64,000 nt of DNA from an uncultured virus (IMG/VR IMGVR_UViG_3300043466_003414) (IMGVR_UViG_3300043466_003414), one strand, 5' to 3'; shown: positions 6,895 to 24,450, counted from the stretch's first letter. Program-made: numbers and translations. The notes: generated from the letters alone by a model not told the origin.

Positions 6895-6895
6895 C

Positions 6896-8758: not shown

Positions 8759-8782
8759 ATATTTTTTGTAAATTTGTGTTCA

Positions 8783-8888: not shown

Positions 8889-8889
8889 T

Positions 8890-11094: not shown

Positions 11095-11585
11095 ATCTTA
11101 TTTTTTCTAATTAAGTAAGTTACTAAAATTCCAATTGCAACAATTGAACCCCACTTAAATACTTGGTTACTAATTAGTTTTTTATCGGTAGCAAAATTAA
11201 CATAATGCTCACAATTAAAATTAATAAAATCGTATTTATAGCCTTTTAAAGCTTCATACATTTTGCTTAAATCTTTACTCCCTAAATCGCTTTTAGTAAC
11301 GGAAATAATATCCCTACCTTTCATATATTTTTCAAGTGGTTCGCAAATTAAATTACCTCCATTTGAATTTATTTTGTCGGTTTGTAAATGATAAATGTAA
11401 AGTTCATCGCCTTGTTTTTCTACAATTCCATAATGATATAAAATCGGCAAAACCTCAACCTTTAATTTAACTAAATCTCCAGTTTCAAGTTTGGATATTG
11501 TGTGCTGTCTGTTTTGAATTTTAATTTCGTCTAAACTACTTAAACTATAAGACATCGCTAAAGTTTTTGAAAAAATCATTATCAA
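11091..11585 (-). CDS. LRAT-like permuted NlpC/P60 enzyme with C-terminal TM anchor
   Basis: YHYGI...IYH...YDFINFNCEHYVN (H-H-C triad); C-terminal TM plus RKNK; true start probably downstream of 11585. Confidence 0.75.
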   Translation of the reverse strand: MIMIFSKTLAMSYSLSSLDEIKIQNRQHTISKLETGDLVKLKVEVLPILYHYGIVEKQGDELYIYHLQTDKINSNGGNLICEPLEKYMKGRDIISVTKSDLGSKDLSKMYEALKGYKYDFINFNCEHYVNFATDKKLISNQVFKWGSIVAIGILVTYLIRKNKI

Positions 11586-11985
11586 AAGCAGAATTTCCAG
11601 AAAGGTAATCTCTCATGGCTAATTCCTCTACATAAATATTCATAAAAACAACTTCATTTGGCAAAATAGTCATATCAAAAAGGGTTTGACCATTCAATAC
11701 TACATTTTCTTCTGACAACTTAAAAAAAGTTGAATTTTGATATTGGTAAGGGTCTATTGTTGGCTTTTGTGAAAATGCTTTTATATAACCATTAACATCG
11801 TATTGTTCAATAGAAAATCCCTCTAATATTTGAGCATTAGAATTTGCCTTTAAATAAATACCATCTACACCATAAACAAAACTACCCATAGAATTTAATA
11901 TCGACTGATAAGAAGTTCCATCGGTACTTATTACGGAAACAACACCTCCGCTATATGTGGTTACTGTTGGTATATAAGCTGGCAT
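11545..11985 (-). CDS. paralog of the putative capsid protein (minor capsid/penton candidate)
   Basis: QILEGFSIEQYDVNG...KPTIDPYQYQ aligns with QVLETISVNTKDANG...VPTIDPYQQQ in 37263..37964. Confidence 0.6.
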   Translation of the reverse strand: MPAYIPTVTTYSGGVVSVISTDGTSYQSILNSMGSFVYGVDGIYLKANSNAQILEGFSIEQYDVNGYIKAFSQKPTIDPYQYQNSTFFKLSEENVVLNGQTLFDMTILPNEVVFMNIYVEELAMRDYLSGNSAFDNDFFKNFSDVL

Positions 11986-11988
11986 TGT

Positions 11989-12339
11989 TTATTTTTTTTC
12001 TATTTCTTCTTCAGCAATTACGCTTCCTTTTTTATTCATTGCTCTTAATAAACCAGTTTTTTTAGATATTACTACCTTAATGCCTTGTTCTTTTAGAATC
12101 ATAGCACTTAACTTGTCTAATTCGGCTTTTTTCTCTCCAGAGTTTATGGCTTCACGCATAGCTTGAAGTCCTATGACCGCATTTTCCTTTTCTTTTTTCA
12201 CATCTTCAGTAGCTTCTTTTGGTGCAGAATATTTGTCATCTAATGACTTTGTTCCATCGTCTTTTTTTGGTTTAAATATCCAAACCAAACCAAGTGCAAC
12301 ACCTAAAGTTACCAATAATACTTTTACTTCTTTATTCAT
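11989..12339 (-). CDS. small membrane protein
   Basis: N-terminal TM followed by KPKK. Confidence 0.7.
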   Translation of the reverse strand: MNKEVKVLLVTLGVALGLVWIFKPKKDDGTKSLDDKYSAPKEATEDVKKEKENAVIGLQAMREAINSGEKKAELDKLSAMILKEQGIKVVISKKTGLLRAMNKKGSVIAEEEIEKK

Positions 12340-12704
12340 CGTTTTTTTAATTTTAATAATAATAGAGCATAAATCAAAACTCCTACTCCTAAACCAACAT
12401 ATAAAATAGTTCTTTCTTTTTTACCTTGTTCTTTTAATTCATCAATTTTTTGTTTGTCAACATATTGATAAACTATTTTTTGTCTTTCAATTTCGGTTTC
12501 AGCTTGCTGTACTTTTGCCAAAAGTTCTTCTTGCTTTTTAGCACTTAATTTAGCTATTTCTTTTTCAAACCTTTTTTGGTCTTTTTTTATTGATGATGCG
12601 AAAGCATAATTAACAATAAGACCAGTAGCAATTGAAACTGCTTCTGTGTACCCACCTAAAGCACTACCAGTGCTTCCTAATGCAATGTCTGGAGGAATTG
12701 GCAT
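12336..12704 (-). CDS. membrane protein (coiled coil + C-terminal TM)
   Basis: LYVGLGVGV TM followed by KLKKR. Confidence 0.7.
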   Translation of the reverse strand: MPIPPDIALGSTGSALGGYTEAVSIATGLIVNYAFASSIKKDQKRFEKEIAKLSAKKQEELLAKVQQAETEIERQKIVYQYVDKQKIDELKEQGKKERTILYVGLGVGVLIYALLLLKLKKR

Positions 12705-12706
12705 AC

Positions 12707-13051
12707 TTATCCTTTTTTATAACTTCCACCTACTAAAGCAACTCCATAAATTAATGAAATTCCTAAACCACTACCCACTACATAAATCCAAGTATCTTTA
12801 AGCCTTTTGGTGCTTTCTTCTTGCAAAGCAACTCTATAACCTAACAAAGTACCAGCAAGAATTTTTGTTCTCTCGGTTTCTCCTAAAAGCTTTAATTCCT
12901 CGTATTTTAATTTTTCTTGAGAAGTCAAATTAGACAAAAACATTGCTTTTTGCAATTCTCTTTGTTTTTTCGCTTCTTTTTTGGCTCTATTTCCACCTAT
13001 AAAACTTGTTATTAATGAACCGCCTACCGATGCCACCGCTACATAACTCAT
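12707..13051 (-). CDS. membrane protein (coiled coil + C-terminal TM)
   Basis: Gly-rich N-terminus, C-terminal TM. Confidence 0.65.
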   Translation of the reverse strand: MSYVAVASVGGSLITSFIGGNRAKKEAKKQRELQKAMFLSNLTSQEKLKYEELKLLGETERTKILAGTLLGYRVALQEESTKRLKDTWIYVVGSGLGISLIYGVALVGGSYKKG

Positions 13052-13057
13052 AAAAAA

Positions 13058-13540
13058 TTATTTTAATTGTTTGTACTTATTGTAATCTTCAAACGAAGAA
13101 ACAACAAATTTTTCCTCTAATTGCTCTATATTTTCCTCATTATCTGGATTAGGATGAACGTTAACGAAAATAGAATCTTCCATAGCAACTACAACTCTTT
13201 TTGTTCCTGCTGGGGATTTTCCATAAAAAGGAGCAACCATTTCTTCTACTCCGTTTTCCGTACATAACATCAATTTCCCTTTTAATAAGAAAAAAGCGTG
13301 GTCGTGTTTATGTATTTTACCAATCGCAACTACGCCTTGTTTTAAAAATATTTCTCTTAAATAAATTCCATCACAAAAAGTGTGAGTTAAAGGCAAAGCT
13401 TCCGAATTACCTATTACTACATCTGGAGAGCCACTATTAATCATTAAGCTTTCAAGATACTCAACTTGCTGATAAAAATTTGAGCCGTTTTGCTCAAAAA
13501 AAACAGCGTTTTCTTTTTGTTCTACTTCTTTTAAATCCAT
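13058..13540 (-). CDS. cupin-fold protein
   Basis: HTFCDGIYLRE...GKIHKHDHAFFLLKG...NVH. Confidence 0.65.
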   Translation of the reverse strand: MDLKEVEQKENAVFFEQNGSNFYQQVEYLESLMINSGSPDVVIGNSEALPLTHTFCDGIYLREIFLKQGVVAIGKIHKHDHAFFLLKGKLMLCTENGVEEMVAPFYGKSPAGTKRVVVAMEDSIFVNVHPNPDNEENIEQLEEKFVVSSFEDYNKYKQLK

Positions 13541-13597
13541 TAGTGAAAAATATTAATAATATAGCACAATATTACGAAAAAATTATTAATTATAATA

Positions 13598-14470
13598 TTA
13601 TTTTAATTTTTCAATTATTTCGGCTACATTAAAAACCTCGTTTAAGTCATTGTAAGGTATTTTTGAAATGTCCTCAAATAAAGGTAGTCTTTGATAGTAA
13701 TTGTGGCTTAAATCCAATTCTTTTGTGTATGGATTAGCGTTTATGTTAGTGTGCATATCATAGCCAAAAACTTTTTCACTTGTTCCTATCCAAGCAACAA
13801 CTGAAGGTAAATTTAAAGAAGTTGCAATGTGCATAGCCGAACTATCAATTAGAAGTCTTTTTTCTGACATTGTTAACATAACAGCTATACTTCTAAAAGT
13901 ATCTAATGCACCAATAGTATTTTCATACATAATTTGGTCATCTCGCTTAATGTGAACAATAGCATAATCATTTTTGTATCTTTCAATGATTTGCTCCATT
14001 ATTGGTACTGGAATATCCCTTGTCCAAGAATATTTTAGCGGTTGGTTTATTGCTCCCCCATGCGGTTGAATAGCCATAATTGGTTTGTCAAGTCTATAAA
14101 AAGGCTCAAAATATTGTTTTTCAGCTTTCGACAAAAACATTTCTGGCATTTCTCCATTATACTTAATACCAAACATTTCGCACCAAATTTGAATTAAGTG
14201 CTTGCTTTCGGTTATGTAGTCTGAAGTAGAGTAAGGGTCGCTTATAAATACCTTTGCATCTTTGTTTTGAATAAGGTTTTTATAAATACCAGAACTATTG
14301 GCTTGCGTTATTATTTTATTAACGTTTGGGTTGTTAATAAATACATCTGGATATGCAGTTGAAACCACTATGTTTGCTTTGCTATATTGTTTTTTAATTG
14401 CTTTTAATACGGCGGTTGCCATAACAGACTTTCCAAGACCCCCATCCACCGAAAATATTACTGTACTCAT
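13598..14470 (-). CDS. GT9 (ADP-heptose transferase-like) glycosyltransferase
   Basis: GGLGKSVMATAVLKAIKKQY...NNPNV...IDSSAMHIATSLNLPSVVAW. Confidence 0.8.
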   Translation of the reverse strand: MSTVIFSVDGGLGKSVMATAVLKAIKKQYSKANIVVSTAYPDVFINNPNVNKIITQANSSGIYKNLIQNKDAKVFISDPYSTSDYITESKHLIQIWCEMFGIKYNGEMPEMFLSKAEKQYFEPFYRLDKPIMAIQPHGGAINQPLKYSWTRDIPVPIMEQIIERYKNDYAIVHIKRDDQIMYENTIGALDTFRSIAVMLTMSEKRLLIDSSAMHIATSLNLPSVVAWIGTSEKVFGYDMHTNINANPYTKELDLSHNYYQRLPLFEDISKIPYNDLNEVFNVAEIIEKLK

Positions 14471-14473
14471 AAT

Positions 14474-15172
14474 TTATAATTTTATATAATTAGTGTTTTT
14501 TTTACTTCTTAATCTACCATTTAATGTTGACCTATTTATTCCAGATTCAGAGCAATATTGTTCTATTGTTTCGTATCTTATTCCATAAACTTCTATTGGC
14601 TTTCCTAATGCTTTAATTAAAGCTGTTTTTCTTCTTAATTTTTCTTCTTCCGAGTGTACTCTACCTCTATTTTTTTCATGTGCTTTTAAAACACAAATTT
14701 TGGCTTTTGGATTTTTTCTACCTTTTGATTTTATAGACATTTTTAATCTGGTTTCTTCACTTGGTATTTTTCCTAAATGAGCTAAACTCATGTTTTTTCT
14801 TGTTTGTTCAGTATGTTTAAACCCAATACAATTTTTATTTCCAGTAGATAATATTTTTAATTTTTCTTTTGTTTCGTTTGTGTGTTTTAAACCATAAGCA
14901 CCATCTCCACCCAAAGTAATATTACACAATGTGCCACCATCTGTTTTTCTTTTATATTCAGAAATAAGTTTAACTTCAAATTCACAAGCTGTTTTCCAAT
15001 CTAAATTTTCATGTAAAATTTCAACAATATAGTCTGGGTATTTTTTTATAATACTCATCCAATGCTTGTTTTTTCTGAATTTATAATATGGTCTTTCTTT
15101 GTTTCCAATACCTATATAAAAAATAACTCCATTTGGTTTTTTATGAGCATATACACAAAATATATTTTCCAT
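14474..15172 (-). mobile_element. GIY-YIG/NUMOD3 free-standing homing endonuclease
   Basis: CVYAH...FYIG, NITLGGDG, repeated HTxETKxKxS NUMOD3 motifs. Confidence 0.8.
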
Positions 15173-15174
15173 AA

Positions 15175-15393
15175 CTAATCTTTTTTAATTTCTTTTATTC
15201 CAAAATTGGAAAATTTATACCATGCTCTTTCGTGTAAAAAATACATAAAAGGCTTTAATAGTATTTCAGTTGCTCCTACACTACCAGCAATAACAAAACT
15301 TCCAGTAAAGAAGTATGATATAACGCAAGTTTGAAGCGTTCCTAAAATTCGATAACTAATTGCTTTTGCAATGTGTCTTTTATAACTTATCAT
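15175..15393 (-). CDS. DUF2061 membrane protein
   Basis: RHIAKAISYRILGT...YFLHERAW. Confidence 0.85.
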   Translation of the reverse strand: MISYKRHIAKAISYRILGTLQTCVISYFFTGSFVIAGSVGATEILLKPFMYFLHERAWYKFSNFGIKEIKKD

Positions 15394-15395
15394 GA

Positions 15396-15629
15396 CTAAC
15401 GTATTATAGCTACTCCAGTATCAGTCCAACTAACATAATCAGCCTTACAGCTAATGTGGTGCTTATTTACCATTTCATTTTTTTGTGGGTCGAAAACATC
15501 ATCCCTTGTGGTAAATGTAGGCACGTTAATTTGTATGTCCGAAGCCAAAAATTCAGCACCATCAATTATTAATCGCCAAAACATTTTGTCATCGGTGCAA
15601 CTATGATTGTATCTTATTTTTATGTCCAT
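15396..15629 (-). CDS. hypothetical protein
   Basis: Operonic ORF. Confidence 0.6.
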   Translation of the reverse strand: MDIKIRYNHSCTDDKMFWRLIIDGAEFLASDIQINVPTFTTRDDVFDPQKNEMVNKHHISCKADYVSWTDTGVAIIR

Positions 15630-16033
15630 TATAATTTTCCTTCTTTTCTTAATTCTTCTCTAATTTTTGTTGCCGAAATATTACCTAAAACAGTTGGGGG
15701 TACATGCTCAATAATATCATATCCTACACCTCTACCAAACTCTACCGAGCAAATATCTGGAATAATCATAACTTTTACTACATCGCAATTAACAAGTAAC
15801 GCATATTCCATTTCTATTACCTCTTTAACTTGTTCAGCAGTATATGGATTTTTGTCATCAATTTCGCCATCTCTGATGCAAATTAAAAGATTTTTACCCT
15901 CATCTATTGCTTGTTGAAACAAATGTTTATGACCCAAGTGTAATGGTTGAAATCTTCCTATAAACATTGCATATTGATTTGGTTTTGGCTCTAAAGAAGA
16001 TTTAACGTGAACAATTTTTTCCCAGTTTTCCAT
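15629..16033 (-). CDS. HxGH cytidylyltransferase-like nucleotidyltransferase (candidate minimal ATP sulfurylase)
   Basis: GRFQPLHLGH...ISATKIRE; lies between cysC and DUF2061. Confidence 0.8.
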   Translation of the reverse strand: MENWEKIVHVKSSLEPKPNQYAMFIGRFQPLHLGHKHLFQQAIDEGKNLLICIRDGEIDDKNPYTAEQVKEVIEMEYALLVNCDVVKVMIIPDICSVEFGRGVGYDIIEHVPPTVLGNISATKIREELRKEGKL

Positions 16034-16035
16034 TT

Positions 16036-16488
16036 TTAAAATTTTAGGTTGTTAAGAATTTCGTTTAAAGTTTCTAGTTCAGAATCGTTTGTAGTGTCAA
16101 CGCTTACAAAGTTTTCTAAAGGCGGTTCGTAATTAGCTACATGGAAATTTTCACGACCTCTAATTTCAGTAGTGTGAATATAAAACTCTTTGCAGTCTAA
16201 TTCTGATTTTAATTTTTCCCTTAAATCCCTAAACGGACTTACTAAAGAAATAATAATGTGATTTAAAGGATTTTGTTTTTGCAAGTATTTTGCAATAGCG
16301 TGAGCAGTTTCAATGTTTTTTCTTCTACCTTGCTCCGAATAGTCTTTATTATCTAAAATTTCTCTTAAATCATCTCCATCAATGTTATATACTTTGCCAT
16401 CAATAAAAGAAGTTTGTAAGGCGGTTTTTAGATAATTCGCAATAGTGGTTTTTCCGCTATGCGGTTGACCAGTTAATATTATTATCAT
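16036..16488 (-). CDS. cysC: adenylylsulfate (APS) kinase (ATG at 16488 preferred)
   Basis: LTGQPHSGKTT, IDGDDLR, GRRKNI, SLVSPFRDLR, YEPP. Confidence 0.88.
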   Translation of the reverse strand: MIIILTGQPHSGKTTIANYLKTALQTSFIDGKVYNIDGDDLREILDNKDYSEQGRRKNIETAHAIAKYLQKQNPLNHIIISLVSPFRDLREKLKSELDCKEFYIHTTEIRGRENFHVANYEPPLENFVSVDTTNDSELETLNEILNNLKF

Positions 16489-16519
16489 GTTTCTTGGTTT
16501 TATTTCAAACAAAAATAAC

Positions 16520-16527
16520 TATATTTG
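16520..16527 (+). promoter_or_regulatory. -7 promoter element TATATTTG
   Basis: Upstream of the isolated plus-strand gene at 16551. Confidence 0.6.
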
Positions 16528-16550
16528 TATTATAAACCAAGAAAATTTTT

Positions 16551-18689
16551 ATGAAAACAAAAATCCTATTTTACGCCCCCCATTTAAGTACTGGTGGGAT
16601 GCCCCAATTTCTACTTAAAAGAATTGAAACTCTAAAAGATAATTACGAAATATTTGTTGTAGAAAACCAGTGCGTTTCCGACAAATATGTAGTTCAACGA
16701 AACAAAATAATCAATTTAGTAGGCGAAAAAAACTTCTTTACAACTATCGGCAAAAACCTTATCAAAGTTATTAAAGACAATAAAATTGATATTGTGCATT
16801 TGGAACATGAAGCTGAAGGTTTTGACTATGATTTGATGAAATTATTGTACGCTGACAATAGAAAATACAAAATAGTTGAAACGTGCCACAATGTAGGTTT
16901 TATTCCACAACACAAAGTTTTTTATCCAGATGCTTTTGCTTTTTGTTCTCCTTTTCATTTGGAAACTTTTGAGCATATAAAGGCAAAAAAGCAACTTATA
17001 ATGTACCCTATTGAAAAGCACAATGTTTATTCCGTTACAAAAAAGGCAAAAGCTTTGCAATTAGGTTTTAGAGAAAAAAAAGTAAATGTTTTATCAGTAG
17101 GTTTATGGTGCGAAAACAAAAACCAATCTAAAGTTTTAGAAGTAGCTAAAAATTATCCAGATTATGATTTTCATATAGTAGGAAACCAAGCCGAAAACTT
17201 TGAAAGTTATTGGAAACCATTAATGGAAAACATACCTAGTAACGTAAAAGTTTGGGGAGAAAGAGAAGATATTTCGGATTTTATGTTGGCTTCGGATATT
17301 TTTTTCTTTCCAAGCAAAAATGAATGTAACCCTATTGTACTTCGTGAAGCTATTGGTTATGGTTTGACTATCTATGCTAATAACTTATCTCAATATTGCG
17401 GTATGTTTGATGGTTTTATACAGCCAATACATTTTGAATTGAAAAAGAAACTATCTCCAAATCATCCAGATACTTCGATTCAATTTAAAAAAGACCATTT
17501 AGATTTTTACAATTCCCTTATTGAAGAAAAACCAAAAAAACAACCAAAAAATAGAAATTTCACTATTAACAACCATTTCGTTGATGGTGCTTTTTTAGAA
17601 ATTAACGGCAACTCAAAAGATAAATTTAAAGTTGAATTTTTTGATGGGGAAAATTTGTTTTACGAAAATACTATCAATTGTAATTCATGGGTAAAGCTAA
17701 ATAGAAAATACTATACCAATTACAAAATAAAAGTTTCACAAATTAAAAAATTAAAGGTTTACGACTTTGAGAACGTAATTGAAACAAAAGTCATTTTAGA
17801 TGAGCAATTATCCTTAAAAGGCAAAAAGGTTATGATTAGCTTTGAAAGTAGTTCATTGGGCGATACTTTGGCTTGGATGCCTTATTGTGATGAGTTCCAA
17901 AAGAAACACGATTGCGTTTTATTCGTTTCTACCTTTAAAAACTTTTTATTCGAGGGTCAATACCCTAACATTAATTTTATTAAGCCTGCTGAAGTAGTTA
18001 CTAATTTGTACGCTAAATACGATTTAGGTTGGTTTTACGATACCAATAAAGAACCAGTTTTACCAAACACAATACCATTACAACAAACCGCTACAAACAT
18101 ATTAGGATTAGATTTTTCGGAAATAAAACCAAAATTAAATTTTGAGCCGAAAAAAGGTAATAAAGATAGTGTTCCTGCAAAATATGTTTGTATAGCACCA
18201 GATTCAACTGCTGGTTGTAAGGAGTGGGATGCTGTAAATTGGGAAATTTTAGTAGATATGTTGGTTGACGAGGGTTATCAAGTCGTAAATGTATCTTTAA
18301 ATTCAAGATACAAACTTAAAAATGTTTATTGCCCAGAAAACTTATCGCTAGAAAGCACTATGCAAATAATACATTTTGCTAAATTCTTTATTGGTTTGTC
18401 AAGCGGTTTATCATGGTTAGCTTGGTCTTTAAATAAGCACGTTTATATGATTGCTAACTTTACAAAAGCCGACCATGAATTTCAAAAAAATTGCACTAGA
18501 TTCACAAATGAAAACGTATGTAATGGTTGCTGGAATAACAAAAATTTCAAATTCGACAAAGGTAATTGGAATTGGTGTCCGATTTGGGATGGTTACGATA
18601 AGCAATTTGAGTGTCAAAAAGGAATAAACCCATTTTGGGTGCTTGAGGAAATTAAAGACAATATAAATTACAAAAGGCTACATAATTAG
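16551..18689 (+). CDS. GT4 glycosyltransferase fused to an Aah/TibC-like protein O-heptosyltransferase
   Basis: N-half PHLSTGG...FPSKNECNPIVLREA (GT4); C-half SSSLGDTLAWMPY...FIGLSSGLSWLAW...CNGCWN...CP...FECQK. Confidence 0.85.
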   Translation: MKTKILFYAPHLSTGGMPQFLLKRIETLKDNYEIFVVENQCVSDKYVVQRNKIINLVGEKNFFTTIGKNLIKVIKDNKIDIVHLEHEAEGFDYDLMKLLYADNRKYKIVETCHNVGFIPQHKVFYPDAFAFCSPFHLETFEHIKAKKQLIMYPIEKHNVYSVTKKAKALQLGFREKKVNVLSVGLWCENKNQSKVLEVAKNYPDYDFHIVGNQAENFESYWKPLMENIPSNVKVWGEREDISDFMLASDIFFFPSKNECNPIVLREAIGYGLTIYANNLSQYCGMFDGFIQPIHFELKKKLSPNHPDTSIQFKKDHLDFYNSLIEEKPKKQPKNRNFTINNHFVDGAFLEINGNSKDKFKVEFFDGENLFYENTINCNSWVKLNRKYYTNYKIKVSQIKKLKVYDFENVIETKVILDEQLSLKGKKVMISFESSSLGDTLAWMPYCDEFQKKHDCVLFVSTFKNFLFEGQYPNINFIKPAEVVTNLYAKYDLGWFYDTNKEPVLPNTIPLQQTATNILGLDFSEIKPKLNFEPKKGNKDSVPAKYVCIAPDSTAGCKEWDAVNWEILVDMLVDEGYQVVNVSLNSRYKLKNVYCPENLSLESTMQIIHFAKFFIGLSSGLSWLAWSLNKHVYMIANFTKADHEFQKNCTRFTNENVCNGCWNNKNFKFDKGNWNWCPIWDGYDKQFECQKGINPFWVLEEIKDNINYKRLHN

Positions 18690-18702
18690 TAGCCTTTTTT
18701 TT
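18672..18702. terminator. bidirectional terminator
   Basis: AAAAGGCTAC-ataatta-GTAGCCTTTT plus a T-run, between convergent genes. Confidence 0.75.
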
Positions 18703-18728
18703 ATGTAAACAAATTTGTTTATATCAAT

Positions 18729-19547
18729 TTATAAATATCCAAAATAATCATAAAACCACTTATAATGGTTTCTTATGTTCATGGATAGTTCATACCCTAG
18801 AACATCTAAATAATCGTCTGGCTTGCGTTCAAATTTTGGTCTTAACGTATGGTCGCCATAAATTCCATGAATTGTATCGTTTTCTTGAGTGTATTGCGTT
18901 ACATTTTCAAAATCGTGCTTGTCGTAGTAAGGCACTTCAAAATGCTCGTAAATACGCTTCATTTCGTTTTCTGGGTTATCCATTAAATCTTCATAACGAA
19001 CAAATAAAATGTTTTTATCTATTCCTTGTTGCATTATATCCCTTAATCGGTCTATTGCAACTCCTACTGGAACTCCACTTGCCCAAATATCAATTCTTTT
19101 ATCTAATGTAGTTCCTACTAATTGTGGTACGTTTTGGATATGGTTTTCTTTATGTGGATTTTTACGGAAGTTTTTTTCCATTGAAGCATAAATACAACGT
19201 ATATCCCTAACCATGCAAATTATTTTTGGATTAGGAAATATCATATTCAATAAACCATGATTAACTCCCCACTCTCGACTTTTATCAACAACGAAAGGCT
19301 TATCGGTCAAGCCTTTAAAAAAACCTTGCATACCGCTTCTACAAAACTCTACAAACGCATTTTCCATTTGTTTTGGGTCTTGAGATATAAACGCTTGAGA
19401 ATGGTTATAATTGTTTTTTGAAGCCATGATTAAATCTACCAAACCACTTGTAGGCGTAGAGTAAAAATCTGGATTTTGAGCAATTATGTTTTGAATTAAT
19501 GTACTACCGCTTCTGGGTAGTGAGGAATTATAAAATATTTTTTTCAT
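18729..19547 (-). CDS. PAPS-dependent sulfotransferase
   Basis: SLPRSGSTL (5'-PSB), KIICMVRD..IYAS (3'-PB), VRYEDL. Confidence 0.88.
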   Translation of the reverse strand: MKKIFYNSSLPRSGSTLIQNIIAQNPDFYSTPTSGLVDLIMASKNNYNHSQAFISQDPKQMENAFVEFCRSGMQGFFKGLTDKPFVVDKSREWGVNHGLLNMIFPNPKIICMVRDIRCIYASMEKNFRKNPHKENHIQNVPQLVGTTLDKRIDIWASGVPVGVAIDRLRDIMQQGIDKNILFVRYEDLMDNPENEMKRIYEHFEVPYYDKHDFENVTQYTQENDTIHGIYGDHTLRPKFERKPDDYLDVLGYELSMNIRNHYKWFYDYFGYL

Positions 19548-19566
19548 TATTTCTTGGTTTAAAATA

Positions 19567-19608
19567 CAAATATAAATAAAAAAGCGAGATTTGTATAAAA
19601 CCTCGCCA
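19567..19608 (-). promoter_or_regulatory. terminator (GCGAG...CTCGC) followed by a TATATTTG promoter for the sulfotransferase
   Basis: Hairpin near 19584-19606 with a minus-strand T-run; caaatata at 19567-19574. Confidence 0.55.
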
Positions 19609-19619
19609 TTTTCTAGTAT

Positions 19620-19931
19620 TTATTTTTTATCTTGTAATAAATCATAAGCCGTTCTTAACTCGGCTATTAAATCATCAATAAAAGTTACTAAATCTTGTTG
19701 GTCTTTTAATTGAAAACCATCTTTAGAAACCCATCTTATATCTTTGTAATTAAAAAAATTAACTACATGATAATTTTCTTCTGCTGTACTACCTTCTGGT
19801 TTTTTATTCCAAACCGCATTAATTAAAGGAGTTACAGTTTGCAAAGTTGTTGTTTCTACTTTTACAGAAAACTCCTTTGAGTTAATTTGTGTTTCTCCAT
19901 AACCAAATATATGAATTGTGAAATTTTCCAT
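19620..19931 (-). CDS. hypothetical protein downstream of the fibre gene (possible chaperone)
   Basis: Operonic ORF; function inferred from position only. Confidence 0.55.
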   Translation of the reverse strand: MENFTIHIFGYGETQINSKEFSVKVETTTLQTVTPLINAVWNKKPEGSTAEENYHVVNFFNYKDIRWVSKDGFQLKDQQDLVTFIDDLIAELRTAYDLLQDKK

Positions 19932-19935
19932 ATTA

Positions 19936-22900
19936 TTAATTTATTTTTTTAGGTTGTAATATTTCTACACCATTCCATCCTTTAATAGCATCTTTATCTT
20001 TTCTTGTTCCTATGATAAGAACGTTATACTCCAAATCCTCGTTAGCAAATATAATTGCTTTTGTTAAATCTGCATTTACTTCTCCATAAGCAATTCCAAA
20101 TCCTTTTTTAGGCGTTACCCAAATTTGAGTGTTTTCATTTAGGAATTTAAAATAATCTGGCAATTCAATTTCAGCAAAACCATCTACCACTTTAACAACA
20201 TATCTATAAATATTATCTCCAGCAGTAGGCGATTCAACAAACGAGTGTTGTAAGTAATGTGTTTTGTTTTTTATAGGGTCTGGGTGCTTAATTCTAAAAG
20301 TACCACTTGTTTTTGATAATGCTTGAACAAATGTTGTATCATTAGCCGATGCAGAAATGGATGAACCTATAATATGTGAGTTTGTATATCCATTTATTGT
20401 ATTATAGCTACCACCTAAAATAGAATTATAATCAGCATAACTGCTACTACTAATTATTTTATTACATCTACCGCCACCAATAAAATTAAATGAAGCATTA
20501 TTATTAGGATATGCTTTTATTATATTATAACTTCCACCAACTATTGCATTAAATCGGCTACAAGCAGAACCCGAATAATAATTAAGTATTTTGTTAGCGT
20601 TCCCTCCTAAAATAGAATTATGTCTTGTATAGTCTATATTACCAGTTTTTCCACAAATTTGGTTTGAGCAACCACCTCCAATAATATTAAGACAAGAGTA
20701 TGTCATAATATTAGAAGCACCACCACCAATAGTATTACCACTTCCATAACCGAAAACATTACCAGTACCACCACCTATTGTTCCATATTCAGCATTAGTA
20801 CCAATGGCATTATATTTACCCCCACCAATAAATGATTGAATAGCATTGATGGTATTTAATTGTCCACCGCCAATTGTTGAACAAGCTCCCAATCCTCTAT
20901 TACATAAACCACCCCCAATAAACGATAATCTACCAGCATAACAACAACTACTAACACCAGTAAAAGCACCAGTTGTTGTATTTAATGTACCACCATAAGT
21001 ATTATGACCAATACCACCGCTTATAGTTGCACCAAAAGAGCAACATTCATTTGTTGGAGATTGAATTATATTTGTGTTACCGCCACCTATTGTAGAGTAT
21101 CTTGCGTTTGTTATGTTGCAATAACCAGCTCCAATAAATGAAAATCTACTACCATCCACGTCATTACATCGACCACCTACAATGGCTGAATAAAGTGAAA
21201 ATTTAGCAATACAATTTTCTTTACCGCCTAAAATAGCAGTAAAAGATTCTCCTACACGATTATAACAACCACCCCCAACAAATGAACCTCCACTACTTGC
21301 TACATTACAAAAACCACCACCAATGAATGAATAATTACCACTACTAACATTACAACAACCGCCTACAATAGAATTTGCAATACCATTTATAGTATTAGTA
21401 CTACCGCCACCAATAAAAGAAAGTGGTTGGTTAATTCTATTACCTGCACCGCCTCCTATAATTGATTGTTGTTCACATATAATATTACCACCACCACCAA
21501 CAATAGAACTATCACTCCCATACGTTCCTGCGTTTATTATATTGCCACTACCTCCTCCTATGAAATGAGTACTTCCAAGATTGATGTAATTATTAAATCC
21601 ACTTGCTATTCCATTAGCACCACCAGAATTACTACCGCCAATAATTCTATTCGATAAACCACCACCTATTGTTGAAAAACATTGCTGATTATTATTAAGG
21701 CAACCACCACCAACTGATGAACTTTGACAAGTAGCACGATTACAATTACCACCAGCAATTGTTGAAAAATAACCAGTAGCAGTATTACATCGACCACCAC
21801 CAATAGTAGATATATTACCAGCAACACAATTTCTATAACCACCACCTATTGTTGATAATCTACCAGCATTACAACAAGTAATTGCACCAGTCAAAGCACC
21901 AGTAGTATTACTAAATGTTCCCCCAGCAGTATTATGTCCTATACCACCGCCTATTGTTACACCAAAAGAGCAACATTCGTTTGTTGGCGATTGAATAATA
22001 TTTCTTTGACCACCACTAATTGTTGAAAATCTTGAATTTGTTATGTTGCATTGACCTCCACCTACTGATGAATAACTACCCGATGCCGTATTACAAAAAC
22101 CACCGCTAATTGTAGAATTTGCACCGCATGAAGTATTAGAATAACCACCTCCCACAGTTGTTCCTTTAGCCGTTGAAATATTATCTCTACCCCCTAAAAT
22201 TGAAGAAAAAGAAATATCTGCAAAATTGTTTCTTCCACCTCCAATAAAAGAACCAACTCCACAAACAACATTGCATAAACCACTACTAACCGATGATATA
22301 CAACCACTCGCACTATTCAAATTACCACCGCTAATTGTTGAATAACAACCAGATGCAGTATTAGATTTACCACCACTAATTGTTGAATATTTATTAGATG
22401 CAACATTACAATAACCCCCACCAACAAATGAAATATAACCACAAACAGTATTATTTTTACCTCCTGCCACATTTGAGTAAGAAGAACAAGCACAATTTTG
22501 AAATCCACCACCTATCGTTGCATAAGTTCCAGTATTTATGTTCTGACCACCACCTCCAATTGTAGAAGTAATACCTGATGCTAAATTTTGATAACCACCA
22601 CTTATTATGGAATTTAAACCGCCAGAAGTGTTGTTTTTACCACTTAAAGAGCCACTATAATCTCCATTTGAAGCATTACCAACGCCAGTTCTAACTGATG
22701 AACCAACACAAGCACCTAAAATAATAACGGCACTTGAACCTACGTTTGTTCCGCTACTTCCACTAGAACCAGAAGTTCCAGTAGTTCCACTTGTTCCATT
22801 AGAACCATTAGAGCCACTTGTACCATCAATACCAGAAGTACCACTTGTTCCGTTAACACCAGAAGTTCCATTAGCACCACTTGTTCCATTAGTACCACTC

Positions 22901-24450
22901 GTTCCATTTATTCCGCTTGTACCATCAATACCAGAAGTACCATTTGTACCATTAATTCCGCTTGTACCATTAACGCCACTTGTTCCATCAGTACCGCTTG
23001 TACCATCAGCACCACTTGTTCCAGCCGAACCATTTGTTCCGCTAGTACCATTTGTACCGCTAGTACCATCAATTCCAGAAGTTCCACTAGTTCCGTTAAC
23101 TCCACTAGTTCCATTTGCACCAGAAGTTCCGCTTGTACCAGTTAAACCAGAAGTTCCGCTTGTACCATCAACACCACTAGTACCACTAGTTCCATCAACA
23201 CCAGTAGTTCCGCTAGTTCCATTTGAACCATTAGAACCGCTTGTACCACTTACACCAGAAGTACCGCTTGTACCATCGACACCAGTAGTTCCACTAGTTC
23301 CATTAGAACCATTAGAGCCACTTGTACCATTAACACCAGAAGTGCCACTTGTACCATCAATGCCAGAAGTTCCGCTTGTACCACTTACACCAGAAGTTCC
23401 AGTTGTTCCAGAAGTTCCACTAGTACTACCTACGGCAACACCAACTTGTTTTGCAACTACAATGATTGAAGGTGCTGAAGGATGAGCGTAAGGCGTTGTT
23501 TGTACTGGAACAGCAGTAATTTGAACGGATGCAGAAGTAGAAGCAAATATTACTTCTAAATAATCATTTGCGTTTAAATCTAAAATAATAGAAACAAAAG
23601 GTAGTGATTTGTTGTTGTTGCTATCTAAAGATAAAATTGAATCTGTACGGACTATATCTGTACCATTTTTTCTTAAAAATATATCAACATCAGTAGCAGT
23701 ACCGCCACTTGTTTTTTCTATTTGTAAAGAATATCCTATTTCATAAACACCAGCATAAGGAAAAGTAATTTGAGAACCACTTGCTAAAGTAATTCCATTG
23801 CTTATTTCGGTTGTATTATATGTAATTGCAGTAGGAGTATTTGCCCCAGTAACTTGTTGAGTTGTAGAATCAGAAAAACTTGCGTACCAATTGGCGATAC
23901 CAGCTCCAGAAGAACCATTTAAACCACTTGAACCACTTGAACCAGAAGTTCCAGTTGTACCAGAAGTACCATTAGACCCATTAGAGCCACTTGTACCATC
24001 TATTCCGCTTGTACCACTTGTTCCGTTTACACCAGAAGTTCCGTTTACACCAGAAGTTCCAGAAGTTCCATCAACTCCAGAAGTTCCAGAAGTTCCAGCC
24101 GAGCCAGTAGTACCACTAGTTCCATTAGTACCATTAGTACCATCAGAACCGCTTGTACCATTAGTTCCACTTGTTCCATTGACACCAGAAGTTCCAGAAG
24201 TTCCATTAACACCAGAAGTTCCGTTAACGCCAGAAGTTCCATCAGTACCGCTAGTTCCATCATTCCCACTTGTACCGCTTGTACCAGACGAGCCAGATGT
24301 TCCGCCACCTATGTAATCTTGAAGTCTTTCAATATTACCATAAATGTCTTTAATCATTGCATCGTTAGTAATGCCATCAATAAACAAAGCCAAACTATTT
24401 CCGTTTGGCGATTGAATATTGGACTTTCCAGATTTACTTACTTTTGCCAT
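19936..24450 (-). CDS. 1504-aa collagen-like fibre/spike protein
   Basis: Two Gly-X-Y (GTS/GVN/GTN) tracts flanking a C1q/BclA-C-like domain, long Cys-rich GGxxN repeats, C-terminal FRIKHP...LQHSFVESP chaperone-like domain. Confidence 0.8.
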   Translation of the reverse strand: MAKVSKSGKSNIQSPNGNSLALFIDGITNDAMIKDIYGNIERLQDYIGGGTSGSSGTSGTSGNDGTSGTDGTSGVNGTSGVNGTSGTSGVNGTSGTNGTSGSDGTNGTNGTSGTTGSAGTSGTSGVDGTSGTSGVNGTSGVNGTSGTSGIDGTSGSNGSNGTSGTTGTSGSSGSSGLNGSSGAGIANWYASFSDSTTQQVTGANTPTAITYNTTEISNGITLASGSQITFPYAGVYEIGYSLQIEKTSGGTATDVDIFLRKNGTDIVRTDSILSLDSNNNKSLPFVSIILDLNANDYLEVIFASTSASVQITAVPVQTTPYAHPSAPSIIVVAKQVGVAVGSTSGTSGTTGTSGVSGTSGTSGIDGTSGTSGVNGTSGSNGSNGTSGTTGVDGTSGTSGVSGTSGSNGSNGTSGTTGVDGTSGTSGVDGTSGTSGLTGTSGTSGANGTSGVNGTSGTSGIDGTSGTNGTSGTNGSAGTSGADGTSGTDGTSGVNGTSGINGTNGTSGIDGTSGINGTSGTNGTSGANGTSGVNGTSGTSGIDGTSGSNGSNGTSGTTGTSGSSGSSGTNVGSSAVIILGACVGSSVRTGVGNASNGDYSGSLSGKNNTSGGLNSIISGGYQNLASGITSTIGGGGQNINTGTYATIGGGFQNCACSSYSNVAGGKNNTVCGYISFVGGGYCNVASNKYSTISGGKSNTASGCYSTISGGNLNSASGCISSVSSGLCNVVCGVGSFIGGGRNNFADISFSSILGGRDNISTAKGTTVGGGYSNTSCGANSTISGGFCNTASGSYSSVGGGQCNITNSRFSTISGGQRNIIQSPTNECCSFGVTIGGGIGHNTAGGTFSNTTGALTGAITCCNAGRLSTIGGGYRNCVAGNISTIGGGRCNTATGYFSTIAGGNCNRATCQSSSVGGGCLNNNQQCFSTIGGGLSNRIIGGSNSGGANGIASGFNNYINLGSTHFIGGGSGNIINAGTYGSDSSIVGGGGNIICEQQSIIGGGAGNRINQPLSFIGGGSTNTINGIANSIVGGCCNVSSGNYSFIGGGFCNVASSGGSFVGGGCYNRVGESFTAILGGKENCIAKFSLYSAIVGGRCNDVDGSRFSFIGAGYCNITNARYSTIGGGNTNIIQSPTNECCSFGATISGGIGHNTYGGTLNTTTGAFTGVSSCCYAGRLSFIGGGLCNRGLGACSTIGGGQLNTINAIQSFIGGGKYNAIGTNAEYGTIGGGTGNVFGYGSGNTIGGGASNIMTYSCLNIIGGGCSNQICGKTGNIDYTRHNSILGGNANKILNYYSGSACSRFNAIVGGSYNIIKAYPNNNASFNFIGGGRCNKIISSSSYADYNSILGGSYNTINGYTNSHIIGSSISASANDTTFVQALSKTSGTFRIKHPDPIKNKTHYLQHSFVESPTAGDNIYRYVVKVVDGFAEIELPDYFKFLNENTQIWVTPKKGFGIAYGEVNADLTKAIIFANEDLEYNVLIIGTRKDKDAIKGWNGVEILQPKKIN

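What the first reader, a model, noticed from the sequence alone, without database searches (positions are those of the whole stretch)
13058..24450. Self-contained PAPS-sulfation plus protein-heptosylation module next to a Ser/Thr-rich collagen-like fibre
Seen in one block: sulfotransferase (18729), APS kinase (16036), HxGH nucleotidyltransferase (15629), DUF2061, GT9 (13598), a GT4-Aah/TibC-like heptosyltransferase fusion (16551) and a cupin, all just downstream of a fibre with long GTS-triplet tracts. Known: APS kinase makes PAPS for sulfotransferases; Aah/TibC heptosylate Ser residues of adhesins. Inference: the virus decorates its spike with sulfated heptose-containing glycans, possibly to mimic sulfated polysaccharides that Bacteroidota bind, or to stabilise a Pro-free collagen helix.
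Basis: partly seen in the sequence, partly recalled or inferred. Interest (0 to 1): 0.8.

Follow-up and report, generated by a model that had tools for sequence, protein, structure and literature searches.

The report
Phage fibre sugar-and-sulfate decoration genes
An uncultured phage carries, beside a giant tail-fibre gene, enzymes that probably coat the fibre with sugars, plus a compact kit for making and using activated sulfate, a virus-particle chemistry that has not been described.

Summary
The gene block is real. "GT9" holds at fold level only, and "cupin" is unproven.

Comparison shows two separable modules, not one.
- **GT4–BAHT fusion:** it travels with proline-free Gly-Thr/Ser-Ser collagen tracts in phages and also in bacteria.
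- **Sulfation cassette:** sulfotransferase, a GT9-fold protein lacking the usual catalytic Asp, APS kinase, a small nucleotidyltransferase, DUF2061 and a 77-aa protein. It travels instead with the fibre's other domain, a β-roll homologous to the head of the trimeric adhesin UspA1.

The window's fibre is a mosaic carrying both domains. The nucleotidyltransferase is often fused to canonical APS kinases, so it is a candidate minimal ATP sulfurylase.

Still unknown:
- No sugar or sulfate has been observed.
- The donor sugar is uncertain, because the adenine-reading Arg of TibC is missing.
- Host envelope glycans remain a rival target for the sulfation cassette.

This scan had already noted the BAHT–collagen pairing and the kinase–nucleotidyltransferase fusion on other DNA. 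My searches found no paper describing either.

The parts
19936..24450 (-). Mosaic tail-fibre gene, 1504 aa: N-terminal ~47 aa, collagen tract 1, globular middle domain, collagen tract 2, beta-roll, C-terminal domain
   Evidence: ORF, translation, PF01391 162.7 bits, PHROG tail-fibre families, domain composition
23896..24309 (-). Collagen-like tract 1 (about aa 48-185), G-T/S-S triplets, no Pro
   Evidence: Translation; S 33, T 29, G 48, P 0 of 138 aa
22651..23430 (-). Collagen-like tract 2 (about aa 341-600), G-T/S-S triplets, no Pro; candidate acceptor of the GT4-BAHT enzyme
   Evidence: Translation; S 58, T 54, G 83, P 0 of 260 aa; co-occurrence of such tracts with BAHT
20461..22650 (-). Beta-roll domain (aa 601-1330) of ~14-residue 'YSTIGGGxxNxAxGx' repeats, Cys-rich (40 Cys); homologous to the UspA1 trimeric-adhesin head; the fibre element that the sulfation cassette tracks
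   Evidence: PDB 3pr7 E 1.3e-22, residues 11-271 against 12-262; present in 62 of 80 sulfotransferase loci against 4/40, 3/73 and 0/80 in the control sets
19620..19931 (-). 103-aa protein of unknown function between fibre and sulfotransferase (u103)
   Evidence: No Pfam/PHROG hit; HMM hits in 26 of 80 sulfotransferase loci, typically just upstream of the sulfotransferase
18729..19547 (-). PAPS-type sulfotransferase, 272 aa
   Evidence: PF13469 83.5 bits; 5'-PSB-like PRSGST and invariant R114/D115/R117/S122; model pLDDT 80.3; nearest solved folds TPST1/2, E 1.5e-7, TM ~0.48
18672..18698 (.). Terminator-like hairpin read on both strands, between the convergent BAHT and sulfotransferase genes
   Evidence: Consensus scan only; sequence
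16551..18689 (+). 712-aa fusion: N-terminal GT4 domain (invariant ExxxxxxxE, E258/E266) plus C-terminal TibC/Aah-type GT9 domain (BAHT)
   Evidence: PF00534 and PF01075; TIGR04414 247.9 bits against cut-off 200; TibC E 7.7e-46; invariant D438, T553, K557, W622, C657, C660, C676, C688 in 11 viral sequences
16036..16512 (-). Minimal APS kinase, 158 aa
   Evidence: PF01583 58 bits; 11 of 11 PDB hits are APS kinases, with P-loop, DGDxxR and SPFR aligned
15629..16033 (-). 134-aa HxGH nucleotidyltransferase; candidate minimal ATP sulfurylase
   Evidence: PF01467; 84 of 120 longer relatives carry an APS_kinase domain and 1 a sulfotransferase domain; fused to full canonical APS kinases in P0038/P0056
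15396..15629 (-). 77-aa cassette protein of unknown function (u77)
   Evidence: No family hit; in 35 of 80 sulfotransferase loci; in one ORF with DUF2061 in 13 loci
15175..15393 (-). DUF2061 small membrane protein
   Evidence: PF09834 69.7 bits; in 51 of 80 sulfotransferase loci
14474..15172 (-). GIY-YIG/NUMOD3 homing endonuclease inserted in the cassette; not part of the function
   Evidence: PF07460, phrog_314; absent at this place in the close relative L003/G001
13598..14470 (-). 290-aa GT9-fold protein with Lys where GT9 enzymes have the catalytic Asp (GGLGK); the sulfotransferase's most constant neighbour
   Evidence: Foldseek top hits 3tov, 1psw, 2h1h, 4rap on a model of pLDDT 67; hhalign 62%, E 7.5e-5; K14 invariant; in 68 of 80 sulfotransferase loci
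13058..13540 (-). 160-aa possible cupin; peripheral, not a core member
   Evidence: Only E 0.06 to cupin_2 chains; phrog_12032 4e-28; in 7 of 80 sulfotransferase loci

Best explanation
The block encodes two decoration systems for one mosaic tail fibre.

(1) The GT4-BAHT fusion. It is a cytoplasmic protein O-glycosyltransferase of the TibC/Aah kind. It puts a sugar on Ser (perhaps Thr) of the fibre's proline-free Gly-Thr/Ser-Ser collagen tracts. The sugar may be heptose, but the donor nucleotide is uncertain. The fused GT4 domain then adds a second sugar.

(2) The sulfation cassette. It makes its own sulfate donor: the small HxGH nucleotidyltransferase adenylylates sulfate to APS, and the minimal APS kinase converts APS to PAPS. 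The sulfotransferase uses PAPS on the fibre's UspA1-like beta-roll domain. Most likely it sulfates a sugar placed there by the GT9-fold partner protein. Less likely it sulfates a protein side chain directly. DUF2061 and the 77-aa protein form a membrane-bound accessory unit of unknown role, possibly in sulfate supply.

Shown: gene identities, conserved catalytic residues, fusions and co-occurrence. Inferred: every chemical step and the target.
For: BAHT identity:
- TIGR04414 scores above its cut-off, and TibC aligns at E 7.7e-46.
- The counterparts of TibC D110, T226, K230 and W305 are invariant in 11 viral sequences (residue roles from PMC4358343 section 11).
- Four aligned Cys are invariant, as is the GT4 ExxxxxxxE motif.

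BAHT with GTS collagen:
- 27 of 40 viral loci have a tract, with S+T 0.63-0.96 of X/Y positions and no Pro.
- 19 of 24 lineages, or 13 of 18 without the six lineages positive by construction.
- 17 of 80 bacterial/MAG loci, several with signal-peptide or lipoprotein (G-T/S-S)n proteins beside a stand-alone BAHT.
- Mel-JY01 and a 735-kb phage show the same pairing.
- Only 4 of 50,697 GenBank phage records have a BAHT at all.
- The beta-roll is not shared by most BAHT-linked fibres, so the collagen tract is the common element.

Sulfation cassette, from 80 sulfotransferase-seeded loci:
- APSK 59, NTase 51, DUF2061 51, u77 35, GT9-fold protein 68.
- Gene order is shuffled between lineages.
- APSK and NTase lie in one ORF in 3 loci; u77 and DUF2061 in one ORF in 13 loci.

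NTase in the PAPS pathway:
- 84 of 120 longer relatives carry PF01583, and 1 carries PF13469.
- P0038 and P0056 join a full canonical APS kinase (224 and 222 bits) to this NTase.

Cassette with the beta-roll:
- 62 of 80 loci, against 4/40 (all four SULT-positive), 3/73 and 0/80 in the other sets.
- The beta-roll ORF lies upstream on the same strand in 46 of 62.
- In other lineages, methyltransferases occupy the place of the sulfation genes beside the BAHT, as expected of alternative glycan-tailoring enzymes.
Against: - No glycan or sulfate has been observed on any of these fibres.
- TibC's Arg-286, which reads adenine N1 and whose Ala mutant loses activity, is T/S/A/V in all 11 viral sequences. 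ADP-heptose is therefore not assured.
- No GmhA/HldE/GmhB-like gene was found among the window ORFs scanned.
- Most GTS-collagen contigs lack a BAHT within 10 kb: only 7 strong hits plus 1 weak among 57 contigs (contig count is my own, from the listing).
- 42 of 80 sulfotransferase loci lack a BAHT-domain hit. Of the 42 loci with full flanks, 19 have neither BAHT nor GTS.
- The GT9-fold partner has Lys at the catalytic-Asp position and may not be a transferase. By fold it is as close to the LPS heptosyltransferases WaaC/WaaF as to TibC.
- In one bacterial chromosome DUF2061 sits in a polysaccharide export cluster next to a sulfotransferase, which fits a glycan-on-envelope target.
- One lineage (L030) has APSK and SULT without the NTase.
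- The 80 sulfotransferase loci are the closest of 528 and are related to each other. Co-occurrence with the beta-roll may therefore partly reflect shared descent.
- The NTase's best family matches are NMN adenylyltransferases. Its ATP-sulfurylase Pfam match is below cut-off, 16 against 24.3 bits.
Confidence: 0.45

Rival explanations
1. The sulfation cassette (sulfotransferase, GT9-fold protein and PAPS genes) modifies a host envelope glycan such as the LPS core or capsule, not the virion. This could block superinfection or stop progeny sticking to debris. It lies beside the fibre gene because the fibre recognises that same structure. The BAHT fusion may still glycosylate the fibre.
For: - The GT9-fold protein has the bare GT-B core of LPS heptosyltransferases. 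Its top structural hits include WaaF and WaaC, and it lacks the BAHT Cys cluster.
- DUF2061 is a membrane protein. In a Chitinophaga MAG chromosome it lies between the Wzm and Wzt genes, next to a sulfotransferase.
- 19 of the 42 full-flank sulfotransferase loci have neither BAHT nor GTS nearby, so the cassette does not need the BAHT glycan.
- The window carries other envelope-type genes: GT4, GT2, an LpxA/NeuD-like acyltransferase and PAP2.
Against: - The cassette lies directly after, and on the same strand as, a beta-roll fibre gene in 46 of 62 loci. It follows that fibre type specifically.
- The sulfotransferase's only PDB sequence hits and its best structural hits are protein tyrosine sulfotransferases.
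- The family is nearly absent from cellular genomes: 5 of 401 Bacteroidota genomes searched, all distant.
- No integrase or lysogeny module was seen among the ORFs scanned. That is weak evidence.
Confidence: 0.25
2. The sulfotransferase sulfates protein side chains of the fibre directly (Tyr, Ser or Thr of the beta-roll repeats), as TPSTs do. The GT9-fold protein with Lys for Asp is a non-catalytic adaptor or has another role.
For: - TPST1/2 are the nearest solved relatives by sequence (E 1e-5) and by fold (E 1.5e-7).
- The beta-roll has 29 Tyr, often at a fixed repeat position (YSTIGGG), plus 93 Ser and 58 Thr.
- The GT9-fold partner lacks the catalytic Asp.
Against: - TM-scores are only about 0.48.
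- Where human TPST1 has 'GEET' in the alignment, the phage enzyme has 'TPTSG', invariant across the family. That this stretch holds the TPST catalytic Glu is recalled, not checked.
- The repeat Tyr may be buried in the beta-roll core. This was not tested.
Confidence: 0.15
3. There is no functional link between cassette and fibre. The sulfation genes are mobile cargo that lands at a permissive site downstream of fibre genes in one related group of phages. The kinase and nucleotidyltransferase serve general sulfur or nucleotide metabolism such as NAD salvage.
For: - The NTase's best named matches are NMN adenylyltransferases.
- A homing endonuclease sits inside the cassette.
- The 80 loci are related to each other (55-97% sulfotransferase identity).
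- Distant sulfotransferase homologues in cultured cyanophages have no such neighbours.
Against: - The fusions of the NTase to canonical APS kinases and to a sulfotransferase are hard to reconcile with NAD salvage.
- The cassette keeps the sulfotransferase and the GT9-fold gene together in 68 of 80 loci despite shuffled order.
- It appears beside BAHT/GTS fibres in several BAHT lineages at 41-50% BAHT identity: L030, L033 and L284.
Confidence: 0.1

Closest known systems
TibC-TibA and Aah-AIDA-I of E. coli (bacterial autotransporter heptosyltransferases, BAHT; TIGR04414; PDB 4rap/4rb4; PMC4358343)
   Same: - The C-terminal half aligns over TibC residues 43-374.
- The catalytic Asp, the two beta-phosphate binders, the heptose-O4 Trp and four Cys are conserved.
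- The enzyme gene lies next to the gene for a repetitive, Ser-rich surface fibre.
   Different: - It is fused to a GT4 domain.
- The adenine-reading Arg-286 is missing.
- The partner is a phage collagen-like G-T/S-S tract, not a beta-helical autotransporter passenger.
- No outer-membrane translocator is present.
- Activity, donor and oligomeric state are untested.
Bifunctional PAPS synthases (canonical ATP sulfurylase plus APS kinase, e.g. Aquifex PDB 2gks, animal PAPSS)
   Same: Two activities, sulfate adenylylation and APS 3'-phosphorylation, are encoded together and are fused in relatives. They feed an adjacent sulfotransferase.
   Different: - The adenylyltransferase is a 134-aa NMNAT-like HxGH domain. 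It is not a PF01747 or CysD enzyme: its PF01747 score is 16 bits against cut-off 24.3.
- The kinase is trimmed to 158 aa.
- The sulfurylase activity is inferred only.
UspA1 head of Moraxella catarrhalis (trimeric autotransporter adhesin, PDB 3pr7)
   Same: The fibre's aa 611-871 align with the UspA1 head repeats 'YSTIGGGxxNxAxGx' at E 1.3e-22.
   Different: - It is part of a phage fibre with collagen stalks.
- No autotransporter anchor was found by Pfam.
- It is rich in Cys (40 in 730 aa).
- It is linked to a sulfation cassette.
Tyrosylprotein sulfotransferases TPST1/2 (PDB 5wrj, 3ap1)
   Same: They are the nearest solved relatives of the sulfotransferase by sequence and fold. The PAPS-binding motifs are conserved.
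   Different: 17-23% identity and TM about 0.48. The stretch aligned to TPST1's 'GEET' differs. The enzyme is cytoplasmic and phage-encoded, and its acceptor is unknown.
Mycobacteriophage virion glycosylation by phage-encoded glycosyltransferases (recalled; seen here only as a phrase cited in papers listed)
   Same: The phage encodes the glycosyltransferases that decorate its own virion proteins.
   Different: Different enzyme families, different targets (capsid and tail tube, as recalled) and no sulfation.

Membership tests
BAHT (TIGR04414, TibC/Aah) | Score above the curated family cut-off | tested here: met
   247.9 bits against cut-off 200, residues 339-702
BAHT (TIGR04414, TibC/Aah) | Catalytic base Asp-110 | tested here: met
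   D438 aligns with TibC D110 (my count on the alignment). It is invariant in 11 viral sequences. Role from PMC4358343 section 11.
BAHT (TIGR04414, TibC/Aah) | Donor-binding Thr-226, Lys-230 (beta-phosphate) and Trp-305 (heptose O4) | tested here: met
   T553, K557 and W622 are invariant
BAHT (TIGR04414, TibC/Aah) | Arg-286 reading adenine N1 (ADP specificity) | tested here: not met
   It aligns to Thr in the window, and to T/S/A/V across all 11 viral sequences
BAHT (TIGR04414, TibC/Aah) | Four-Cys iron site | tested here: met
   C657, C660, C676 and C688 are invariant and aligned with TibC's CxxC...C...C. That these Cys bind iron is recalled; the passages I read mention only a bound ferric ion.
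BAHT (TIGR04414, TibC/Aah) | Heptosylates an autotransporter passenger; dodecameric | not testable with these tools
   There is no autotransporter here. The neighbour is a collagen-like fibre.
APS kinase (PF01583 / TIGR00455) | Family score and signature motifs (P-loop, DGDxxR, SP[FY]R) | tested here: met
   58 bits against Pfam cut-off 21.1. The motifs align with solved APS kinases, and 11 of 11 PDB hits are APS kinases.
APS kinase (PF01583 / TIGR00455) | Equivalog-level score and full-length match | tested here: not met
   58.1 bits against cut-off 138.7. Only profile positions 2-102 of 152 are matched.
ATP sulfurylase (PF01747 Sat; CysD) | Family score | tested here: not met
   PF01747 gives 16 bits against cut-off 24.3, E 0.0085. 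The 'works like' claim rests on fusions.
NMN adenylyltransferase (NadM/archaeal type) | Family score | tested here: not met
   The best NCBIfam subfamily hit is 35.2 bits against cut-off 127. The PDB NadM hit, E 1.7e-6, covers residues 21-90 only.
GT9 heptosyltransferase (PF01075), for the 290-aa protein | Family score | tested here: not met
   No Pfam hit at E 0.01. TIGR02201 gives 19.6 bits against cut-off 170.2.
GT9 heptosyltransferase (PF01075), for the 290-aa protein | GT-B fold closest to GT9 enzymes | tested here: met
   Foldseek hits: 3tov 3.8e-8, 1psw 1.7e-7, 2h1h, 4rap, on a model of pLDDT 67. hhalign against clear GT9s gives 62%, E 7.5e-5.
GT9 heptosyltransferase (PF01075), for the 290-aa protein | Catalytic Asp in the N-terminal GLGD motif | tested here: not met
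   GGLGK, with K14 invariant in 4 sequences. It aligns to LGD of clear GT9s.
PAPS-dependent sulfotransferase (PF13469/PF00685) | Family score, PAPS-binding motifs and fold | tested here: met
   83.5 bits against cut-off 27. PRSGST and R114/D115/R117/S122 are invariant. 64 PDB matches at E<=0.001; those listed are mostly PAP/PAPS-complexed sulfotransferases.
Tyrosylprotein sulfotransferase | Catalytic Glu after the 5'-PSB loop | tested here: inconclusive
   TPST1 'GEET' aligns to 'TPTSG'. The identity of the catalytic residue is recalled, not checked.
Collagen triple-helix repeat (PF01391) | Long uninterrupted G-X-Y tracts | tested here: met
   162.7 bits in 5 stretches. The tracts are Pro-free. 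Triple-helix formation is not testable here.
Trimeric autotransporter adhesin | Head repeats plus C-terminal membrane anchor | tested here: not met
   Head repeats are present, but no anchor family appears in the Pfam scan of the fibre.

The most novel reading that the evidence does not exclude
Tailed phages sulfate their own virions. A widespread viral cassette makes PAPS with a third, previously unrecognised kind of ATP sulfurylase: a 134-aa NMNAT-derived domain working with a minimal APS kinase. It uses the PAPS to put sulfate on the adhesin-like beta-roll heads of tail fibres. A separate TibC-type enzyme glycosylates proline-free Gly-Thr/Ser-Ser collagen stalks in both phages and bacteria.
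Probability: 0.3. Interest if true: 0.88.

Novelty: new variant of a known kind. Interest (0 to 1): 0.72.

Why it matters
- **Virion chemistry:** if true, phage fibres carry sugars and sulfate that sequence alone does not show. That would affect receptor binding, stability and recognition by hosts and grazers in natural waters.
- **BAHT substrates:** the BAHT–(G-T/S-S)n pairing would give these enzymes a second, much larger substrate class than autotransporters, in bacteria as well as phages.
- **Sulfur metabolism:** a minimal ATP sulfurylase would be a new entry point into sulfur metabolism. It would change how viral 'cysC' auxiliary genes are read, as part of a sulfation kit rather than sulfur assimilation.
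- **Testability:** Microcystis phage Mel-JY01 is a cultured system for testing the glycosylation half.

Tried and rejected
- **DNA as the substrate:** nothing supports it. No DNA-modification family was found in the block.
- **Beta-roll as the BAHT target:** I first thought the BAHT might target the beta-roll, by analogy with beta-helical autotransporters. I rejected this as the main reading because most BAHT-linked fibres lack that domain.
- **L052/L086:** an APS-kinase HMM hit lies next to giant GTS fibres there. It proved a divergent P-loop protein (29% identity, DAD for DGD, no Pfam hit) with no sulfotransferase nearby, so I did not use it.
- **320-aa relatives of the NTase:** their N-terminus is not an APS kinase.
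- **Cyanophage sulfotransferase neighbourhoods:** uninformative.
- **Close relatives elsewhere:** megablast of the block against GenBank phages gave no match. A single-sequence scan of genome contigs gave none.
- **u77 Atlas look-up:** scores were 0.82-0.86 to GH97_N clusters, below the reliable range.
- **Promoter scan:** no more sites than in shuffles.
- **Host identity:** not settled. The hints are DUF2061 relatives named from Flavobacteriaceae and MAG labels.
- **Literature:** searches found nothing on BAHT with collagen-like or phage fibres, nothing on phage sulfotransferase/PAPS modules with fibres, and nothing on TAA-head repeats in phage fibres. Subscription journals are not covered.

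Full report
**What is there.** The window is AT-rich (about 30% GC) and phage-like. It holds RecT and a PD-(D/E)XK nuclease, several lysins, a polyvalent protein with an ADP-ribosyltransferase domain, and many ORFs without a family. Its own assembly is not held. A 52-kb viral record, G001, is a close relative, with the fusion enzyme 90% and the sulfotransferase 97% identical.

- a 1504-aa fibre with two Pro-free G-T/S-S collagen tracts;
- a 103-aa ORF;
- a sulfotransferase;
- on the opposite strand, a 712-aa GT4 + TibC/Aah-like fusion;
- then an APS kinase, an HxGH nucleotidyltransferase (NTase), a 77-aa ORF (u77), DUF2061, a homing endonuclease, a 290-aa protein and a 160-aa protein.

The homing endonuclease is absent at this place in G001.

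**The fusion enzyme.** Its C-terminal half passes the NCBIfam cut-off for autotransporter O-heptosyltransferases, 247.9 against 200 bits. It aligns with TibC residues 43-374 at E 7.7e-46.

I read section 11 of the TibC structure paper (PMC4358343). Asp-110 is the catalytic base, Thr-226 and Lys-230 hold the beta-phosphate, Trp-305 binds heptose O4, and Arg-286 reads adenine N1. In an alignment of 11 divergent viral fusions:
- The counterparts of D110, T226, K230 and W305 are invariant.
- Four Cys aligned with TibC's are invariant.
- The GT4 domain's ExxxxxxxE motif is invariant.
- Arg-286 is replaced by Thr, Ser, Ala or Val in all 11.

The enzyme is therefore a true BAHT relative with an intact catalytic site, but its donor nucleotide is open. 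No heptose-precursor gene was seen among the window ORFs scanned.

**What the BAHT travels with.**
- A scan of viral contigs gave 40 loci at 42-89% identity. In 27 of them a Pro-free collagen ORF lies in the locus, with Ser and Thr filling 63-96% of X and Y positions. Of the 13 without, 11 are short loci with no collagen ORF at all, and 2 (L035, L036) have only an Ala/Pro/Gln-rich collagen 7 kb away.
- I collapsed all 89 viral loci with a strong BAHT hit to 24 lineages, by single linkage at 70% identity. Of these, 19 have such an ORF. Six of the 19 came only from the GTS-seeded scan and are positive by construction, which leaves 13 of 18.
- The reverse does not hold. Among 57 contigs found by a G-[TS]-S DNA pattern (my count from the listing), only 7 have a strong BAHT hit and 1 a weak GT9 hit.
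- BAHTs are rare in phages: 4 of 50,697 GenBank records.
- The one cultured phage with a BAHT is Microcystis phage Mel-JY01. It has a + strand ORF of at least 1016 aa with 202 such triplets, 1.7 kb upstream of the BAHT gene. GenBank annotates the antisense strand there.
- A 735-kb uncultured phage shows the same pairing; a 636-kb one does not.
- Of the 80 bacterial or MAG BAHT loci most like the viral profile, 17 carry S/T-rich, Pro-free GXY ORFs.
- In four that I read, a stand-alone BAHT of 371-394 aa is flanked by signal-peptide or lipoprotein genes with (G-T/S-S)n tracts. These are an Arenicellales chromosome, a gammaproteobacterial MAG, a Methylococcales MAG and a Pseudobdellovibrionaceae MAG.
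- The window fibre's other domains are not shared by most BAHT-linked fibres. The collagen tract is the common element and the likeliest acceptor.
- Around the BAHT, different lineages carry different tailoring genes: FkbM and other methyltransferases, radical-SAM and 2OG oxygenases, or the sulfation genes.

**The sulfation genes.**
- *Kinase.* It passes the Pfam cut-off for APS kinase, and all 11 PDB hits are APS kinases with the P-loop, DGDxxR and SP[FY]R motifs aligned. It is short and fails the equivalog cut-off.
- *NTase.* It looks most like NMN adenylyltransferases but far below their cut-offs.
- *NTase fusions.* Of 120 longer relatives listed, 84 carry an APS-kinase domain and one a sulfotransferase domain. 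P0038 and P0056 join a full-length canonical APS kinase (224 and 222 bits) to this NTase.
- *Distribution of the fusions.* About ten Atlas clusters of such fusions are mostly from tailed phages. This is a lead only.
- *My inference.* An adenylyltransferase tied to APS kinase and to a sulfotransferase most simply makes APS from ATP and sulfate. That is inference.
- *Sulfotransferase.* It belongs to an abundant, tightly conserved viral family: 2,574 clusters at E<=1e-10, with the top 120 at 63-97% identity. The family is nearly absent from the 401 Bacteroidota genomes sampled, with 5 distant hits. Its model (pLDDT 80.3) is a PAPS-sulfotransferase fold, closest to tyrosylprotein sulfotransferases at modest TM of about 0.48.
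- *The 290-aa protein.* It has a GT9-like GT-B fold, but Lys stands where GT9 enzymes have the catalytic Asp.

**What the sulfation genes travel with.** I seeded on the sulfotransferase and took the best 80 of 528 viral loci. Within 10 kb of it I found:

| Neighbour | Loci of 80 |
|---|---|
| GT9-fold protein | 68 |
| APS kinase | 59 |
| NTase | 51 |
| DUF2061 | 51 |
| BAHT-domain hit | 38 |
| u77 | 35 |
| GTS collagen | 28 |

- APS kinase and NTase share one ORF in 3 loci. u77 and DUF2061 share one ORF in 13.
- Gene order differs between lineages.
- The strongest fibre correlate is not the collagen. It is the fibre's aa 601-1330 region, which gives BLASTP alignments of at least 200 aa in 62 of 80 loci. 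In the control sets the count is 4 of 40 in the BAHT-seeded set (all four also have the sulfotransferase), 3 of 73 in the GTS-seeded set and 0 of 80 in the bacterial set.
- Of the 18 sulfotransferase loci without this region, 11 have the sulfotransferase within 1.4 kb of the locus start, so the upstream DNA is missing.
- The region lies upstream on the same strand in 46 of 62 loci.
- It is homologous to the head of the trimeric adhesin UspA1 (PDB 3pr7, E 1.3e-22), sharing the 'YSTIGGGxxNxAxGx' repeat in register.

**Reading.** The window's fibre is a mosaic of collagen stalks and an adhesin-like beta-roll. Two enzyme sets that are separable elsewhere meet beside it.
- I think it likely, about three in four, that the GT4-BAHT fusion glycosylates the collagen tracts.
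- I think it likely that the kinase feeds the sulfotransferase.
- It is somewhat better than even that the NTase is the missing sulfurylase.
- It is about even that the sulfate ends on the fibre's beta-roll domain, on a sugar or directly.

The main rival for the sulfation cassette is a host envelope glycan. The GT9-fold partner resembles LPS heptosyltransferases as much as TibC. DUF2061 is a membrane protein that, in one bacterial chromosome, lies in a polysaccharide export cluster beside a sulfotransferase. And 19 of the 42 full-flank loci have neither BAHT nor GTS nearby. Because the 80 loci are kin, co-occurrence with the beta-roll may partly be shared descent. I ran no tree-aware test.

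**Novelty.** Earlier notes of this scan, on other genomes, had already paired TibC-like enzymes with Ser/Thr collagen fibres, twice with a sulfotransferase. They had also proposed the APS-kinase-NTase fusion as a mini PAPS synthase. I reached both readings from my own calls before seeing those notes. They are AI notes, not independent evidence.

New here:
- the split into two modules;
- the link of the sulfation cassette to UspA1-like beta-roll fibres;
- its constant GT9-fold partner with Lys for Asp;
- the bacterial (G-T/S-S)n partners of stand-alone BAHTs;
- the cultured test system, Mel-JY01.

My literature searches found no paper on any of this. They cover open-access papers and bioRxiv only.

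Noticed in passing
L288 (GenBank PP395634.1, Microcystis phage Mel-JY01) 1-3052: GenBank annotates a minus-strand 'hypothetical protein' (739-2298) made of EVP/LVP repeats. This is the antisense frame of a + strand ORF of at least 1016 aa with 202 G-T/S-S triplets that runs to the start of the linear record. The fibre gene is probably mis-annotated.
   Followed up: partly
L204, L207, L213, L223 (bacterial/MAG chromosomal loci): Stand-alone BAHT homologues (371-394 aa) are flanked by small secreted or lipoprotein genes with long (G-T/S-S)n or (GSS)n tracts, some ending in Asp runs. This is a possible bacterial O-glycosylation system for Ser-rich repeat proteins.
   Followed up: partly
window 20461-22650 (-): The UspA1-like beta-roll has 40 Cys in 730 aa, often at a fixed repeat position (GGxCN). 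This is unusual for a protein assembled in a reducing cytoplasm. No explanation was tested.
   Followed up: no
window 14474-15172 (-): A GIY-YIG/NUMOD3 homing endonuclease is inserted between the GT9-fold gene and DUF2061. It is absent at this place in the close relative G001/L003. Some relatives of the NTase are called as fusions with NUMOD3 domains (P0022).
   Followed up: partly
L052 12417-12890 and L086 3362-3835: A 157-aa P-loop protein distantly like the APS kinase (29% identity, DAD instead of DGD, no Pfam hit) lies just after giant GTS collagen ORFs (3817 aa in L052). These phages also share RecT and PD-(D/E)XK with the window. No sulfotransferase or BAHT is in either locus.
   Followed up: partly
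L285 (Chitinophaga MAG chromosome) 4518-13786: DUF2061 lies between the Wzm-like and Wzt-like ABC transporter genes of a polysaccharide cluster. It is directly followed by a PF00685 sulfotransferase, an acetyltransferase and methyltransferases.
   Followed up: no
window 59576-63547 (-): A second glycan-type gene group: GT4 (425 aa), GT2 (225 aa) and a hexapeptide acyltransferase resembling LpxA/NeuD. A PAP2 phosphatase lies at 41862-42527.
   Followed up: no
window 8890-11094 (-): A 734-aa protein made of DUF285 repeats (556 bits) with a weak PKD hit lies a few genes downstream of the block, on the same strand. It is conserved at about 70% in L003, L004 and L018, and may be another surface or receptor-binding protein.
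   Followed up: no
window 52064-58943 (-): A MoxR-type AAA_5 ATPase next to a DUF7192 protein, and a 972-aa polyvalent protein with DUF5824, DUF5661 and an ART-PolyVal ADP-ribosyltransferase domain.
   Followed up: no
window 27300-27947, 43852-44532, 44984-45529, 46733-47200 (-): Four separate cell-wall enzyme genes: two GH108, one glucosaminidase and one M15 peptidase. A PG_binding_1 protein lies at 31151-31585.
   Followed up: no
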